From positions 96,001-160,000 of the forward strand of contig CALBRH010000051.1 of the NCBI GenBank assembly GCA_937899865.1: a stretch of 64,000 bases of DNA. The letters are read 5' to 3'. This DNA is from an uncultured euryarchaeote. GTDB taxonomy: Archaea > Thermoplasmatota > Poseidoniia > Poseidoniales > Poseidoniaceae. Position numbers and translations under genes: made by a program. Every line of letters begins with the position of its first letter. Within the stretch, counting starts at the first letter, position 1. The notes below the pieces were generated by a model. That model was not told the origin of the DNA, ran no database searches, and was given only the letters and a program-made list of their open reading frames with translations. This document shows positions 6,408-10,385 of this stretch, in pieces.

Positions 6408-6617
6408 TTATTCATTAGTCATCCAGAATCTTTGTTCTGCTTCAACAATAGTAGTAGCCGATTCTGCACCTGTTTCTTCAACATAGCACTTCCAGCAATA
6501 ATAATTATTATCGATTACCATTGCAGCACCAAATGTCATTCTAATGCCGCATTTCTTACACCTAGGGCCAATTTCTCCATTAGGTGCTTGTGCCAACTGT
6601 ACATTGTCGTGAGGCAT
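6408..6617 (-). CDS. Small Zn-finger protein (CxxC-x17-CxxC)
   Basis: CKKC and CWKC; GGAG SD upstream; co-oriented between the DOHH-like gene and priS. Confidence 0.7.
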   Translation of the reverse strand: MPHDNVQLAQAPNGEIGPRCKKCGIRMTFGAAMVIDNNYYCWKCYVEETGAESATTIVEAEQRFWMTNE

Positions 6618-6661: not shown

Positions 6662-7141
6662 CTAACAATCAACTTCATTGTATTCTTTACTCTTACACCA
6701 ATCAAGTAAATCAATCGCAACTTCACATGATTCTGATATTTCTGGCATTTGATGATTTACAAATTGTTCAAGAATAGGTCTAACAGAATAATCACCTATT
6801 GCACCTAAAGCTTCAGCAGCTTCATGCCTTACCATTACGTGTTCAGACTCATTACTTAGCACATCAATCAATGTTGGTATTGCAACCTGATTTTGCATTT
6901 GACCTAACACATATGCTACTTCATGGCGAAGTAAAGCACTATCAGAATTGAATCCAGAACATAATGCTAAGCATGCTGTATCAGAACCGTTATTTCTAAG
7001 TGCGAAAACATTTCTCATCCTCTGAAACATTGGAACATTTGAATCAGTAAGAGAATTTTCCCAATCAATTATTTCTCCATGCATTAAAGGTGGAGCTGGG
7101 TCTACAGACCCATATTGGCTTACTTTTGGTTTGTTATTCAT
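6662..7141 (-). CDS. Half-length deoxyhypusine hydroxylase (DOHH)-like HEAT-repeat protein
   Basis: SVDPAPP, FALRN, SALLRHEVAYVLGQMQ, MVRHEAAEALGAIG and ESCEVAID match the recalled C-terminal half of eukaryotic DOHH. ATGA overlap with mqnD. Confidence 0.8.
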   Translation of the reverse strand: MNNKPKVSQYGSVDPAPPLMHGEIIDWENSLTDSNVPMFQRMRNVFALRNNGSDTACLALCSGFNSDSALLRHEVAYVLGQMQNQVAIPTLIDVLSNESEHVMVRHEAAEALGAIGDYSVRPILEQFVNHQMPEISESCEVAIDLLDWCKSKEYNEVDC

Positions 7142-8022
7142 TCAACTGCCCCAATAAACTTAATTTTACTTACATCAAAGTTTGAATCAATAAGCCCAAT
7201 TTTTTGCCCTTCCAAAAGGAATTGCCTTATTGAAGCTCTACCATCTTCTCGATAATCAATTGTCCTATCATTAACGTACATTGTTACGAACTTTCGGTTA
7301 GTATCATCATCAATTCCTCGACCCCATTTTTTGGCAAATTCCAATGCTTCATCTGGATTATCGATAGCATACTCAATACTTTTTTTTGTGTACATTGTTA
7401 TATCTTCCATCATTTTTTTACCAAGATCTCTTCTTACAACATTACCGCCAAGGGGCATGGGGAAATTACTTGTTTTGTTATTCCACCATTTCCCGATATC
7501 GATTAATACTTCTAGATTATAATCAACATAGGTTAATTGCCCTTCATGAATAATTAGTCCAGATAGATAAGTACCATCAAGAATTCGTGGGATAATTTCA
7601 TCAAAAGGAACTACCTCAACATCAACATCACCCCATGCTAACCTCAAACCTAAATAGGCACTAGTTTTCAAACCTGGAACTGCAATCTTAGATTGTTTTA
7701 CTTGTTCAACACTAACTCCTGATTTAGCCACTATCATTGGACCATATCCCTCCCCCATAGAAGCACCACAATTCATTAAACTGTAATTCTCTGCGATATC
7801 AGGAAATGCGTGAATAGAAACCGCTGAAACTTCTAATTCCTGATTCATTGCACGATGGTTAAGAGTTTCAATATCTTGTAACTCATGAACGAAATGATAT
7901 CCTGGAGTTGGAAACTTACCATTAGTCATAGCATGAAACATAAATGCATCATCTGGGTCAGGAGAGTGTCCAATTCTAACAATGTAATTGCCATGCTCAT
8001 CTTGCTCAAGTTGGTTGGACAT
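7138..8022 (-). CDS. mqnD: 1,4-dihydroxy-6-naphthoate synthase (futalosine pathway)
   Basis: GHSPDPDDAFMFHA, DIETLN, GASMGEGYGP, AVPGLKTSAYL, FDEI, LIIHEGQLTY, PMPLGGNVVRR, MYVNDRT. Confidence 0.93.
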   Translation of the reverse strand: MSNQLEQDEHGNYIVRIGHSPDPDDAFMFHAMTNGKFPTPGYHFVHELQDIETLNHRAMNQELEVSAVSIHAFPDIAENYSLMNCGASMGEGYGPMIVAKSGVSVEQVKQSKIAVPGLKTSAYLGLRLAWGDVDVEVVPFDEIIPRILDGTYLSGLIIHEGQLTYVDYNLEVLIDIGKWWNNKTSNFPMPLGGNVVRRDLGKKMMEDITMYTKKSIEYAIDNPDEALEFAKKWGRGIDDDTNRKFVTMYVNDRTIDYREDGRASIRQFLLEGQKIGLIDSNFDVSKIKFIGAVE

Positions 8023-8153: not shown

Positions 8154-10385
8154 ATGTATGGCAGAAGAAACGCCACCTTAATTGTGGTGATTTTTGCTAT
8201 TATGTGTGCCCCAATTGCTAACGCATCATCCTCTGGAATGAATTTTATTGAAACTACAGTCTCAAACAAATCAGATGCACGTATAAATTCCGTAACAGTA
8301 AACGAAAATAGTACAATTATTGCCAGTTCATATGGCACATATGTTGAGTTTCATAATACTACAACTCTTGACTTAATTGAACGCTTTAATTTTGGTAAAG
8401 AAATATATCACATTGAATTCTCTCCGAGTGGAAAAGATGTTGCTGTTAGCCTTGTTGCCACACAAGCTATACCTGATTCAATTCAATTGATTGATGTAGA
8501 ACAATTGGTAATCAAAGATAAAAAATCTAGAGGTAATGATCGCCCAGGAAATTTAGATTGGTCGCCTAATGGAACTAGGATTGTTGTCCCCAATATGAAT
8601 AATGGTGCACAAGTTTTGGATTCTTCAAGTATGAATGAATTATTCTTGTTAAATGGAGTGCATACTTCGGATGTTACTTGCGTATCATTTTCTAAGACTG
8701 GAAATTATATTATTACAGGTGATGAAAATGGCAAATTAAAATTGTGGGATAATGAAGGAGAACCACAAAATCTTGAAATTGAAGTCGGGGAGGAAATTAC
8801 TGGCTGTGATTTCAGTAGCATGGATGCAAAAATAGCATTTTCTACCAAATCAGGTAACATATTTTCTTACACACTAACTGGGACTTCACTTCAATCTAGA
8901 GACTTAGGAGATAATTATGGATTGAAGTGGTCTCAAAATAATGATATACTATATGTTTTAAACTCAGATAATAAGCCAAAATTATTAGCATTGGATGGTT
9001 CAACTTTTGAGATTATCCATTCTACTAGTTTATTACATAAATCATTAGATTTTTCAATGGAAGAATCTAATGGTTTGCTTTCCAAGTTCTATGTAGCAAC
9101 AGATACAAATCATGTTGCGATTTATGGAACTCCAACATACCCTAATGGATATGGACTTATGGGTTCAGATTTAGATGGTGATAATATCCCTGATACTTTT
9201 GACTTGGATGATGATGGTGATTCATTTTTGGATGATTGGGATTTTAATTGTCTTAACTCAACTATTTGCAGTAGAGAACCAGATTTACAAACTATAAGGT
9301 CAATGGTTATTGATATTAATGAAAATACACTTATTATCGAAGATGTATATACAATGTCATTGATAGACACATATATATTCAGAAATTTGACACGGAAAGC
9401 TATAATCGCTGATGATTTGATAGGTTATGATGAAACAAACTTGATCGAAAACGCATTTTGTGATAATATGGATAAAAATGACTATGTTCAAAAATTAAGA
9501 AGTTCCATTGAATTGTCTGTTGGTCAAGTTACTAATGGCACCATTAACTGTGAAATAATTGATGGATTATTGTTCACTCAAACCTTGGACAAGGAACAAC
9601 TTAAGTTTAGATTTAAAACAATATTTGATGTCTCTCCTAACGTCACATTACCATTGAGTGTCACAATTAACCAACAAATTTCAGTTATTGATTCATCGAT
9701 AACTCATATGGTCGAAAATCACCCGATTTTAATACAGCAAATAGATACAGATGGCGCACTATTGTACACTTTATGGTGGAATTCTGATGTTGCAGAGAAT
9801 CCAAAATTAAACTTTACAGATTTGGAAAAAGAAGAATCAAAAATAAACTCTTTCGTTAAATTAGTTGAAGAAAATCAATTAATCATAGGACTATTTTTAT
9901 GCTCATCTATTATTCTATTATGGCTGATAGTTAGATGGCGAAACCTTTCATCAGTAATTCTAGATGATTCTGAATTTGAAGATTCTAGTGATGATTTGAA
10001 CGAAGATTATGAACAAAATTATAATCAACAATTACAAGTTGATAGTGAAGACATTTCTATTGACAATTCTGATAATTTGACGGCACATGTTAATGATGAA
10101 CCAATTATAGCTGAAGCAATTCCCGGTGAACAGCGACCAATTGATAGAAGAGCTTTTACACTAACTGATAATGAAGAATTTGTTGAACAAAAGGACATAA
10201 AAAGACGTACAGGTAGGACTCAAAGGAATGCACAAGGACCAATTATGAGTACCAAAAGAAAGAGACTAGATGGAAAATTGGATATACCAGGTGAGAAAAT
10301 AATTTCTAAGAAAACATCTGTAAAGAAAGTTGTAGCAAAAAAGGTTAGAAAGGTACGTTCGGTAAAGAAAGATAATCAGAATTGA
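8154..10385 (+). CDS. Secreted, membrane-anchored WD40 beta-propeller protein with DxDxD motifs
   Basis: Signal-like N-terminus; WD repeats (HTSDVTCVSFSKTGNYIITGDENGKLKLWD); DLDGDNIPDTFDLDDDGD; one TM near aa 580; acidic then basic tail. Confidence 0.75.
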   Translation: MYGRRNATLIVVIFAIMCAPIANASSSGMNFIETTVSNKSDARINSVTVNENSTIIASSYGTYVEFHNTTTLDLIERFNFGKEIYHIEFSPSGKDVAVSLVATQAIPDSIQLIDVEQLVIKDKKSRGNDRPGNLDWSPNGTRIVVPNMNNGAQVLDSSSMNELFLLNGVHTSDVTCVSFSKTGNYIITGDENGKLKLWDNEGEPQNLEIEVGEEITGCDFSSMDAKIAFSTKSGNIFSYTLTGTSLQSRDLGDNYGLKWSQNNDILYVLNSDNKPKLLALDGSTFEIIHSTSLLHKSLDFSMEESNGLLSKFYVATDTNHVAIYGTPTYPNGYGLMGSDLDGDNIPDTFDLDDDGDSFLDDWDFNCLNSTICSREPDLQTIRSMVIDINENTLIIEDVYTMSLIDTYIFRNLTRKAIIADDLIGYDETNLIENAFCDNMDKNDYVQKLRSSIELSVGQVTNGTINCEIIDGLLFTQTLDKEQLKFRFKTIFDVSPNVTLPLSVTINQQISVIDSSITHMVENHPILIQQIDTDGALLYTLWWNSDVAENPKLNFTDLEKEESKINSFVKLVEENQLIIGLFLCSSIILLWLIVRWRNLSSVILDDSEFEDSSDDLNEDYEQNYNQQLQVDSEDISIDNSDNLTAHVNDEPIIAEAIPGEQRPIDRRAFTLTDNEEFVEQKDIKRRTGRTQRNAQGPIMSTKRKRLDGKLDIPGEKIISKKTSVKKVVAKKVRKVRSVKKDNQN

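What the first reader, a model, noticed from the sequence alone, without database searches (positions are those of the whole stretch)
6662..7141. Stand-alone half-size deoxyhypusine hydroxylase homologue in an archaeon: candidate missing aIF5A hypusination enzyme
Seen: 159-aa ORF with SVDPAPP, FALRN, SALLRHEVAYVLGQMQ, MVRHEAAEALGAIG and ESCEVAID. Its ATG overlaps the mqnD stop (ATGA), so no upstream half was lost to a frameshift. Established: eukaryotic DOHH is two internally repeated HEAT halves with four His-Glu motifs, and both halves supply ligands to an O2-activating diiron centre. Some archaea have hypusinated aIF5A, but a DOHH orthologue is generally reported as absent. The motifs match the recalled eukaryotic linker and C-terminal half (SVDPAPP; SALFRHEVGYVLGQLQ; MVRHECAEALGAI; ESCEVALD) much more closely than a generic PBS-lyase HEAT repeat would. 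Inference: it homodimerises to rebuild the diiron site, and is either a pre-duplication ancestor of eukaryotic DOHH or a eukaryote-derived transfer. An O2-dependent enzyme would suit an aerobic marine archaeon.
Basis: partly seen in the sequence, partly recalled or inferred. Interest (0 to 1): 0.85.

Follow-up and report, generated by a model that had tools for sequence, protein, structure and literature searches.

The report
Half-size archaeal deoxyhypusine hydroxylase homologue
This marine archaeon (Poseidoniales, Marine Group II) has a strongly conserved gene for exactly one lobe of the two-lobed iron enzyme that eukaryotes use to finish the hypusine modification of translation factor 5A; papers say archaea lack this enzyme, and two copies are predicted to pair and rebuild the two-iron site.

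Summary
Window 6662-7141 (minus strand) encodes a 159-aa protein whose ATG overlaps the mqnD stop (ATGA). It is a specific homologue of eukaryotic deoxyhypusine hydroxylase (DOHH). Human DOHH (4D4Z) matches at E 6e-65, and both of its halves align. The model superposes on one lobe (TM 0.86-0.88).

Both His-Glu motifs, the Gly of the substrate pocket and an N-terminal DPAP arm are invariant in 33 archaeal sequences. The gene is single-copy and always half-size. It was found in 158 of 201 sampled genomes of its order and in at least eight further Thermoplasmatota families. Of 109 carrier genomes, 104 also encode haem-copper oxidase.

Deoxyhypusine synthase and aIF5A (motif PGKHG) are present. 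A homodimer is predicted (ipSAE 0.93, best control 0.00).

In trees the eukaryotic N-halves and C-halves each form a clade with no archaeal rows inside, so a transfer from the sampled eukaryotic lineages is unlikely. The root is unresolved. The mqnD link is synteny only.

The most likely function is a homodimeric diiron DOHH acting on aIF5A. It cannot explain hypusine in anaerobic Crenarchaeota.

This scan has noted the same family before on other DNA (59 notes, at least 57 genomes). I found no paper describing it.

The parts
6662..7141 (-). 159-aa stand-alone half-size DOHH homologue (stop codon at 6662-6664)
   Evidence: ORF. 4D4Z matches at E 6e-65 with both halves aligned. AlphaFold2 model pLDDT 95.8. 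Foldseek top hit 4D4Z, TMq 0.86-0.88, TMt 0.49.
7091..7102 (-). Codons for D14-P15-A16-P17, the N-terminal DPAP 'arm'. It is invariant in the family and corresponds to the inter-lobe linker SVDPAPP of human DOHH.
   Evidence: Plus strand reads tggagctgggtc, which is GACCCAGCTCCA on the minus strand. Invariant in 33 archaeal sequences. Residues 10-18 lie in the predicted dimer interface and touch the partner's 80-81, 113-114 and 141-145.
6920..6925 (-). His73-Glu74, first His-Glu motif. It aligns with human H56-E57 and H207-E208.
   Evidence: Plus strand ttcatg is CATGAA on the minus strand. Ungapped alignments. Invariant. Roles of the human residues from the review read.
6899..6904 (-). Gly80-Gln81 of the LGQ motif. 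Gly80 aligns with human position 63 and with G214, a substrate-binding glycine.
   Evidence: Plus strand ttgacc is GGTCAA on the minus strand. Invariant. In the predicted interface. for the human residues.
6821..6826 (-). His106-Glu107, second His-Glu motif. It aligns with human H89-E90 and H240-E241.
   Evidence: Plus strand ttcatg is CATGAA on the minus strand. alignments. M103-V104-R105-H106-E107 are invariant.
7138..8022 (-). Upstream MqnD-type menaquinone (futalosine pathway) gene. Its TGA overlaps the half-DOHH ATG (ATGA at 7138-7141). This is context, not part of the enzyme.
   Evidence: PF02621 at E 1.9e-62. The adjacency is conserved in two families of the order only. The two genes occur without each other.

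Best explanation
The gene encodes one four-HEAT-repeat lobe of deoxyhypusine hydroxylase. Two identical chains pair head to head. Each supplies two His-Glu motifs, and each N-terminal DPAP arm wraps onto the other chain. The dimer thereby reproduces the two-lobed architecture and the interfacial diiron site of the eukaryotic single-chain enzyme. The dimer uses O2 to hydroxylate the deoxyhypusine side chain that deoxyhypusine synthase has placed on the Lys of the PGKHG loop of aIF5A, giving hypusine.

Shown here: specific homology, conservation of the ligand and pocket residues, single copy, half size, and presence of DHS and aIF5A. Predicted: the homodimer. Inferred: iron binding, O2 chemistry, the substrate, and that the modification is useful but dispensable.
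For: - Homology: human DOHH 4D4Z matches at E 6.3e-65. The query aligns without gaps to both halves, the N-half at 104 bits and the C-half at 115 bits.
- Residue mapping: a constant offset of 5 between chain index and published numbering places H73/E74 on H56/E57 and H207/E208. It places H106/E107 on H89/E90 and H240/E241, and G80 on position 63 and G214. These are the published iron and substrate residues.
- Conservation: all of these residues, plus DPAP, are invariant in 33 archaeal sequences that are only 37-82% identical overall.
- Longer homologues: every named one is a eukaryotic DOHH, at 42-55% identity.
- Fold: the model has pLDDT 95.8, and its top Foldseek hit is 4D4Z at rmsd 1.4-1.5 A, TMq 0.86-0.88 and TMt 0.49, which is one lobe.
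- Copy number: one copy in the genome.
- Homodimer model: ipSAE 0.93 against a best control of 0.00. In the tool's calibration this mark was reached by 20 of 30 proteins solved as pairs of one chain and by 1 of 23 solved as single chains. The runs agree in at least 97% of contacts and the partner's pLDDT is at least 93. The interface holds H73, H106, E110, G80-Q81, M103 and the DPAP arm. The pass may partly reflect memory of the two-lobe packing in 4D4Z, so it shows likeness, not binding.
- Substrate pathway in the same genome: DHS at 298 bits, aIF5A with SKPGKHGSAKA, and agmatinase plus AdoMet decarboxylase.
- Selection and spread: dN/dS about 0.03-0.04. Found in 158 of 201 genomes of the order.
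- Oxygen link: 104 of 109 carrier genomes in the phylum sample also have COX1, and no COX1-negative family carries the gene.
Against: No biochemical evidence exists for any member. Hypusine has never been measured in these uncultured archaea, and the Euryarchaeota that were measured mostly held deoxyhypusine (paper quoted). The gene is not next to DHS or aIF5A. aIF5A lies about 79 kb away on the same contig. Outside Poseidoniales the neighbours are unrelated genes. The gene has been cleanly deleted in many lineages, including 9 of 33 genomes of the window's own genus, so it is not essential. Several aerobic families in the phylum lack it. A symmetric homodimer offers two identical substrate faces, whereas the eukaryotic enzyme is asymmetric. 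Whether the dimer binds aIF5A was not modelled.
Confidence: 0.66

Rival explanations
1. It is a homodimeric diiron oxygenase of the DOHH fold, but it acts on a different substrate. Candidates are a free or protein-bound polyamine other than aIF5A-deoxyhypusine, or a step linked to menaquinone synthesis, as the translational coupling to mqnD might suggest.
For: The ATGA overlap with mqnD is conserved in two families of the order. One genome (locus L028) has an in-frame MqnD::half-DOHH fusion of 463 aa. There is no linkage to DHS or aIF5A. The measured Euryarchaeota mostly hold deoxyhypusine.
Against: The residues that bind the deoxyhypusine side chain in the human enzyme (the E57/E208 and G63/G214 equivalents) are invariant. 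Identity to true DOHH is 46-48% over the core. The mqnD link is local synteny only. It is absent in family f2 and in all non-Poseidoniales families. MqnD persists where half-DOHH is deleted, for example in 9 genomes of the own genus. Half-DOHH occurs without MqnD in f2, at 2 of 2 against 0 of 2. From established knowledge, the futalosine pathway has no unassigned hydroxylation step.
Confidence: 0.17
2. It is a non-catalytic HEAT-repeat scaffold of the generic PBS-lyase HEAT type, and its His-Glu motifs are incidental.
For: Pfam recognises only HEAT_PBS and HEAT_2. NCBI names the relatives 'HEAT repeat domain-containing protein'. Small HEAT proteins with two His-Glu motifs also occur in Nitrososphaerales and Aenigmatarchaeota, where designed HEAT proteins outscore DOHH.
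Against: DOHH outscores every other solved protein by about 90 bits. NCBIfam lyase models score 15-28 bits against cut-offs of 220-600. The invariant residues are exactly the metal and pocket residues and they sit in the predicted interface. Purifying selection is strong.
Confidence: 0.05
3. It works as a heteromer with an unrecognised, highly diverged second lobe rather than as a homodimer.
For: The eukaryotic enzyme is asymmetric. Only sequence-level searches for a second copy were made.
Against: No second relative was found at E <= 0.001 in a 91%-complete genome. There is one copy per genome across the order, apart from G061 and G174, which gave two matches. There is no conserved neighbour outside Poseidoniales. 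The symmetric homodimer model is confident.
Confidence: 0.05

Closest known systems
Eukaryotic deoxyhypusine hydroxylase (human DOHH, PDB 4D4Z/4D50; yeast Lia1; Drosophila nero; EC 1.14.99.29)
   Same: The HEAT-hairpin lobe fold is the same (rmsd 1.4-1.5 A). Core identity is 46-48%. The two His-Glu motifs per lobe have the same spacing. The LGQ glycine, the MVRHE motif, the ESCEVA helix and the SVDPAPP segment are shared. The genome also has the same pathway partners, DHS and IF5A.
   Different: It is one lobe (159 aa) instead of two (about 300 aa), so four His-Glu motifs need two chains. The dimer would be symmetric with two DPAP arms, whereas the eukaryotic chain keeps that segment only once, as the inter-lobe linker. 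It is archaeal, dispensable and patchily distributed. No activity has been shown.
PBS-lyase HEAT-like repeat proteins (CpcE/CpcF, NblB, E. coli YibA) and designed alphaRep proteins
   Same: They share the repeat family (Pfam HEAT_PBS, HEAT_2) and the general VRxxAAxALG repeat consensus.
   Different: Their scores are far lower: at most 132 bits against 221 for DOHH, and NCBIfam lyase models score 15-28 bits against cut-offs of 220-600. They have no conserved double His-Glu site and no DPAP arm.
Small double-His-Glu HEAT proteins of Nitrososphaerales, Aenigmatarchaeota and a 'Halobacteria' MAG (loci L211, L218, L254, L247)
   Same: They are 130-170 aa, and their two His-Glu motifs align with H73/E74 and H106/E107 at the same spacing.
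   Different: They are only 25-30% identical to the window's protein. They lack the DPAP arm, the LGQ motif and the ESCEVA helix. In the PDB they match designed HEAT proteins better than DOHH. I do not count them as members.

Membership tests
Deoxyhypusine hydroxylase (EC 1.14.99.29) | Best similarity is to DOHH rather than to generic HEAT proteins | tested here: met
   4D4Z scores 221 bits (E 6e-65) against 132 bits for the next solved protein. All named longer homologues are eukaryotic DOHH. JGI labels the relatives 'deoxyhypusine monooxygenase'.
Deoxyhypusine hydroxylase (EC 1.14.99.29) | Lobe of four HEAT hairpins that superposes on the solved enzyme | tested here: met
   Model pLDDT 95.8. 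Foldseek top hit 4D4Z at TMq 0.86-0.88 and rmsd 1.4-1.5 A, against 0.66 for the next hits.
Deoxyhypusine hydroxylase (EC 1.14.99.29) | His-Glu motifs at the iron-ligand positions (human H56, H89, E90, H207, H240, E241) | tested here: met
   H73-E74 and H106-E107 align to both human pairs and are invariant in 33 archaeal sequences. Residue roles are from the review read.
Deoxyhypusine hydroxylase (EC 1.14.99.29) | Residues that bind the deoxyhypusine side chain (human E57, E208 and the LGQ glycines) | tested here: met
   E74 and G80 align to them and are invariant.
Deoxyhypusine hydroxylase (EC 1.14.99.29) | Eight HEAT repeats and four His-Glu motifs in one chain (two lobes) | tested here: not met
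   159 aa, one lobe and two motifs. Single copy. Half size in 158 genomes. Four motifs would need a homodimer, which is predicted only.
Deoxyhypusine hydroxylase (EC 1.14.99.29) | Substrate pathway present: DHS, and IF5A with the modifiable Lys | tested here: met
   DHS PF01916 at 298 bits. aIF5A TIGR00037 at 101.6 bits with SKPGKHGSAKA.
Deoxyhypusine hydroxylase (EC 1.14.99.29) | Two irons bound; O2-dependent hydroxylation of deoxyhypusine on IF5A | not testable with these tools
   This needs purified protein. The only indirect support is the association with COX1-bearing genomes, 104 of 109.
Phycobilin lyase / NblB HEAT proteins | Score above the curated NCBIfam cut-off | tested here: not met
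   15-28 bits against cut-offs of 220-600.
Futalosine (mqn) menaquinone pathway | Co-occurrence and conserved linkage with mqn genes | tested here: not met
   Adjacent only in families f1 and f3. MqnD is kept where half-DOHH is deleted, and half-DOHH is present where MqnD was not found.

The most novel reading that the evidence does not exclude
The archaeal homodimer is the surviving single-lobe form from which the two-lobed eukaryotic DOHH arose by tandem duplication and fusion. Aerobic Thermoplasmatota, including the abundant Marine Group II and III archaea, would then make true hypusine on aIF5A. In that case hypusine hydroxylation by this enzyme family predates, or arose outside, the eukaryotes, and the textbook statement 'no DOHH in archaea' is wrong.
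Probability: 0.35. Interest if true: 0.82.

Novelty: new variant of a known kind. Interest (0 to 1): 0.72.

Why it matters
Papers on archaeal aIF5A state that no DOHH orthologue exists in any archaeal genome and that the archaeal hydroxylation step is unsolved. This gene is a concrete, small and easily expressed candidate. It would make that statement testable for a globally abundant group of marine archaea. It also predicts hypusine in a 'euryarchaeal' lineage, where mostly deoxyhypusine has been reported.

It is also a natural experiment on how a pseudo-symmetric two-lobed metalloenzyme relates to a symmetric homodimer. The archaeal lobe is closer to each eukaryotic half than the two halves are to each other. 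In addition, lineages that have cleanly lost the gene serve as natural knock-outs for metaproteomic comparison.

There are limits. The family does not explain hypusine in Sulfolobus or in anaerobic Crenarchaeota. Automated pipelines (JGI) already label it deoxyhypusine monooxygenase.

Tried and rejected
- Menaquinone role (from the mqnD overlap and one MqnD fusion): rejected. The two genes occur independently and the adjacency is confined to two families.
- Gene neighbourhood outside Poseidoniales: no conserved partner. Neighbours are an M28 peptidase, PurH, alanine racemase, a kinase and a P-type ATPase.
- PF01287 failed to find aIF5A. TIGR00037 found it.
- The profile search of 1.84 billion representatives was swamped by eukaryotic DOHH and giant multi-HEAT proteins. 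It gave no view of other archaeal phyla.
- Two related-loci scans returned only Thermoplasmatota-type records, plus a few contigs in bacterial-labelled bins that are probably mis-binned.
- The listing of cluster members gave no organism names. The look-up of encoding contigs on two soil-type members added no informative neighbours.
- The Atlas lead to Bathyarchaeota and Nitrososphaerota clusters was only partly tested. The Nitrososphaerales and Aenigmatarchaeota proteins found by a DNA pattern are distant double-His-Glu HEAT proteins. They hit designed HEAT proteins better than DOHH, so I did not count them.
- Rooting the half-repeat tree with those proteins: the outgroup branch exceeds 4 changes per column and the deep supports are 0-46, so the result is inconclusive.
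- The sigma-70 promoter and terminator scan does not apply to archaea and found fewer promoter-like sites than in shuffled sequence.
- The 2006 PNAS paper on the DOHH structure prediction is not held in the library.
- The AU test neither supports nor rejects archaeal monophyly (p 0.51).

Full report
**Observation.** One search lists a 159-aa ORF on the minus strand at 6662-7141 with all the quoted motifs. One search shows tcat at 7138-7141, which is ATGA on the minus strand. The start codon therefore overlaps the TGA of the upstream gene. That gene is a PF02621 (MqnD-type) menaquinone-synthesis protein. Downstream lie a 69-aa Cys-rich protein and the primase small subunit PriS. The record titles of close relatives are Poseidoniales or Poseidoniaceae MAGs, including the first published MG-II assembly, CM001443.1. 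The organism is thus a Marine Group II archaeon.

**What it is.** Pfam sees only generic HEAT_PBS and HEAT_2 repeats. The NCBIfam phycobilin-lyase models score far below their cut-offs.

- Against solved structures, human DOHH (4D4Z) stands out at E 6.3e-65 and 221 bits. The next best, a designed HEAT protein, has 132 bits.
- The query aligns without gaps to both halves of the human chain: residues 29-150 to the N-half (104 bits) and 4-147 to the C-half (115 bits).
- With a constant offset of 5 between chain index and published numbering, H73-E74 falls on H56-E57 and H207-E208. H106-E107 falls on H89-E90 and H240-E241, and G80 falls on position 63 and G214.
- The review read names these histidines and glutamates as the diiron ligands. 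It names the glutamates and glycines as the binders of the deoxyhypusine side chain.
- An AlphaFold2 model (pLDDT 95.8) has eight main helices. It superposes on one lobe of 4D4Z at rmsd 1.4-1.5 A, with TM 0.86-0.88 by the model and 0.49 by the target. All other hits stay near 0.66.
- All named homologues longer than 280 aa are eukaryotic DOHHs, at 42-55% identity.

**Conservation and spread.**

- The near-length search gave 2381 proteins at E <= 0.001. Most of the best 120 are 157-177 aa and 60-96% identical; about ten are 247-276-aa eukaryote-type sequences at 45-53%. NCBI names them 'HEAT repeat domain-containing protein' and JGI names them 'deoxyhypusine monooxygenase'.
- The window's genome (2.01 Mb, 91% complete) has a single copy.
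- In a sample of 201 genomes of the order, 158 have it, in 21 of 24 genera. It is nearly always one copy in an open frame of about 154-176 aa.
- In a sample of 401 genomes of the phylum, 110 have it. Beyond the order these include family f29 (18 of 19, 53-61% identical) and f10, f18, f26, f28, f33, f34 and f48. None was found in f5, f6 or f19, and f16 gave only a weak generic hit.
- An alignment of 33 archaeal sequences, 37-82% identical to the window's protein, has these invariant residues: D14-P15-A16-P17, H73-E74, G80-Q81, M103-V104-R105-H106-E107, E110, G113, S138 and V141.
- Among close relatives dN is 0.07-0.18 while dS is saturated. Where computable, dN/dS is 0.03-0.04.

**Pathway partners.** The genome encodes a canonical deoxyhypusine synthase (298 bits). 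It also has a DHS-like paralogue inside an agmatinase and AdoMet-decarboxylase cluster. aIF5A lies on the same contig, about 79 kb from the gene and 22.5 kb beyond the window's end. It carries the loop SKPGKHGSAKA.

**Dimer.** Two copies plus two Fe gave ipSAE 0.93 in three runs, against a best control of 0.00.

- In the tool's calibration this mark was reached by 20 of 30 proteins solved as pairs of one chain and by 1 of 23 solved as single chains.
- The runs share at least 97% of contacts, and the partner's pLDDT is at least 93.
- The symmetric interface contains H73, H106, E110, G80-Q81, M103 and E137-S138.
- Arm residues 10-18 touch the partner's 80-81, 113-114 and 141-145. This explains why DPAP is invariant.
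- The solved human enzyme packs two such lobes within one chain, so the pass may come partly from memory. It shows likeness, not binding.

**The mqnD link.** The order MqnD, half-DOHH, zinc-ribbon gene, PriS is conserved in families f1 and f3. It is absent from f2 and from every family outside the order. One genome (L028) has an in-frame MqnD::half-DOHH fusion of 463 aa.

MqnD was found in 183 of 201 genomes of the order. These include all nine genomes of the own genus that lack half-DOHH, while f2 has half-DOHH without MqnD. In four contiguous contigs the half-DOHH gene is simply absent, leaving a gap of 117-294 bp between mqnD and the zinc-ribbon gene. The linkage is therefore synteny, the gene is dispensable, and a menaquinone role is unlikely. 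From my own knowledge, this dispensability parallels yeast, where the DOHH gene is not essential. The paper read states that only DHS is essential in yeast.

**Oxygen.** Haem-copper oxidase subunit I (PF00115) was found in 173 of the same 401 genomes. By my count from the two lists, 104 of the 109 genomes with a strong half-DOHH match also have it. Every family without COX1 (f5, f6, f16, f19 and others) lacks half-DOHH. Aerobic families f4, f22, f23, f25 and f35 lack it too. An aerobic lifestyle looks necessary but not sufficient. Related genomes are not independent, so this is a pattern and not a statistical test.

**Origin.** I cut 26 eukaryotic DOHHs into halves with an HMM of the archaeal proteins. 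These 26 were the eukaryotic sequences most similar to the query, which is a bias. They also leave several supergroups unsampled.

- Over 126 shared columns, archaeal-to-N-half identity averages 45.9% and archaeal-to-C-half 47.8%. N-half to C-half averages only 42.5%.
- The careful tree puts all N-halves in one clade (support 100/97) and all C-halves in another (99/96). The archaeal rows lie between them.
- An AU test does not reject archaeal monophyly (p 0.51).
- Descent from a sampled crown-eukaryote half is therefore contradicted.
- A single-lobe ancestor, or a transfer involving a stem eukaryote, both remain possible.
- Rooting with distant double-His-Glu HEAT proteins placed the root among the archaeal rows. 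The outgroup branch exceeded 4 changes per column and supports were 0-46, so I treat this as inconclusive.

**Other phyla.** A degenerate DNA pattern for the second motif also hit Nitrososphaerales, Aenigmatarchaeota and 'Halobacteria' MAGs. Those proteins are 131-168 aa and keep both His-Glu pairs at the same spacing. They are only 25-30% identical, they lack the DPAP arm and the LGQ motif, and they match designed HEAT proteins better than DOHH. I do not count them as members. Apart from those hits, every named relative I saw was Thermoplasmatota-type or came from a probably mis-binned contig.

**Literature and earlier notes.** Prunetti et al. 2016 and Bassani et al. 2018 state that no DOHH orthologue is known in any archaeal genome. 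The former also summarises older data: hypusine in Crenarchaeota, including the anaerobes Pyrodictium and Thermoproteus, and mainly deoxyhypusine in Euryarchaeota. Seven full-text searches found no paper describing an archaeal or half-size DOHH. The scan's own notebook holds 59 earlier notes on this family in at least 57 genomes.

**Verdict.** This is a real, conserved, single-lobe DOHH homologue. Its most probable function is a homodimeric O2-dependent deoxyhypusine hydroxylase for aIF5A in aerobic Thermoplasmatota (confidence 0.66). It is a new architectural variant of a known enzyme in a domain said to lack it. It is not the general answer for archaeal hypusine.

Noticed in passing
L028:2492-3880 (minus strand; genome G015, family f3 of the order): There is an in-frame fusion of MqnD (PF02621, residues 27-282) with the half-DOHH lobe (HEAT, residues 362-445) in one 463-aa open frame. 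It was seen in 1 of 201 genomes. It could be a real fusion, or a lost stop or frameshift at the ATGA overlap.
   Followed up: partly
L116, L117, L118, L119 (genomes G182, G060, G002, G088): The half-DOHH gene is cleanly absent between mqnD and the zinc-ribbon gene, leaving a gap of 117-294 bp in long contiguous contigs. The gene has been lost repeatedly within Poseidoniales, which gives natural knock-outs.
   Followed up: yes
L002:89-3474 (own genome, contig C45): A second, weaker DHS-family gene (152 bits) sits in a cluster of agmatinase, AdoMet decarboxylase, the DHS-like gene and a 351-aa unknown. It may work in polyamine synthesis rather than on aIF5A.
   Followed up: no
window 6408-6617 (minus strand): A 69-aa protein with two Cys pairs, CKKCG and CWKC (zinc-ribbon-like, no solid family match), is conserved next to PriS throughout the order at 40-91% identity.
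   Followed up: partly
L211:1907-2398, L218:3510-4001, L254:1383-1886, L247:417-809: Small HEAT proteins in Nitrososphaerales, Aenigmatarchaeota and a 'Halobacteria' MAG carry two His-Glu motifs at the DOHH spacing but otherwise look like generic HEAT repeats. They may be a separate family of small metal-binding HEAT proteins.
   Followed up: partly
L125, L191, L194, L210 (record titles: Proteobacteria bacterium, Yoonia sp., Rhodobiaceae bacterium): Contigs carrying the archaeal half-DOHH gene sit in MAGs labelled as bacteria. For L125 (the same contig as L200) the neighbours include a beta-CASP RNase J-type nuclease. These are probably mis-binned archaeal contigs.
   Followed up: no
window 8154-10385 (plus strand): A 743-aa protein has an N-terminal signal-like segment, an acidic DGDxxPD-type stretch, a hydrophobic segment near residue 590 and a Lys-rich tail. 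It diverges quickly among relatives, down to 21-57% identity.
   Followed up: no
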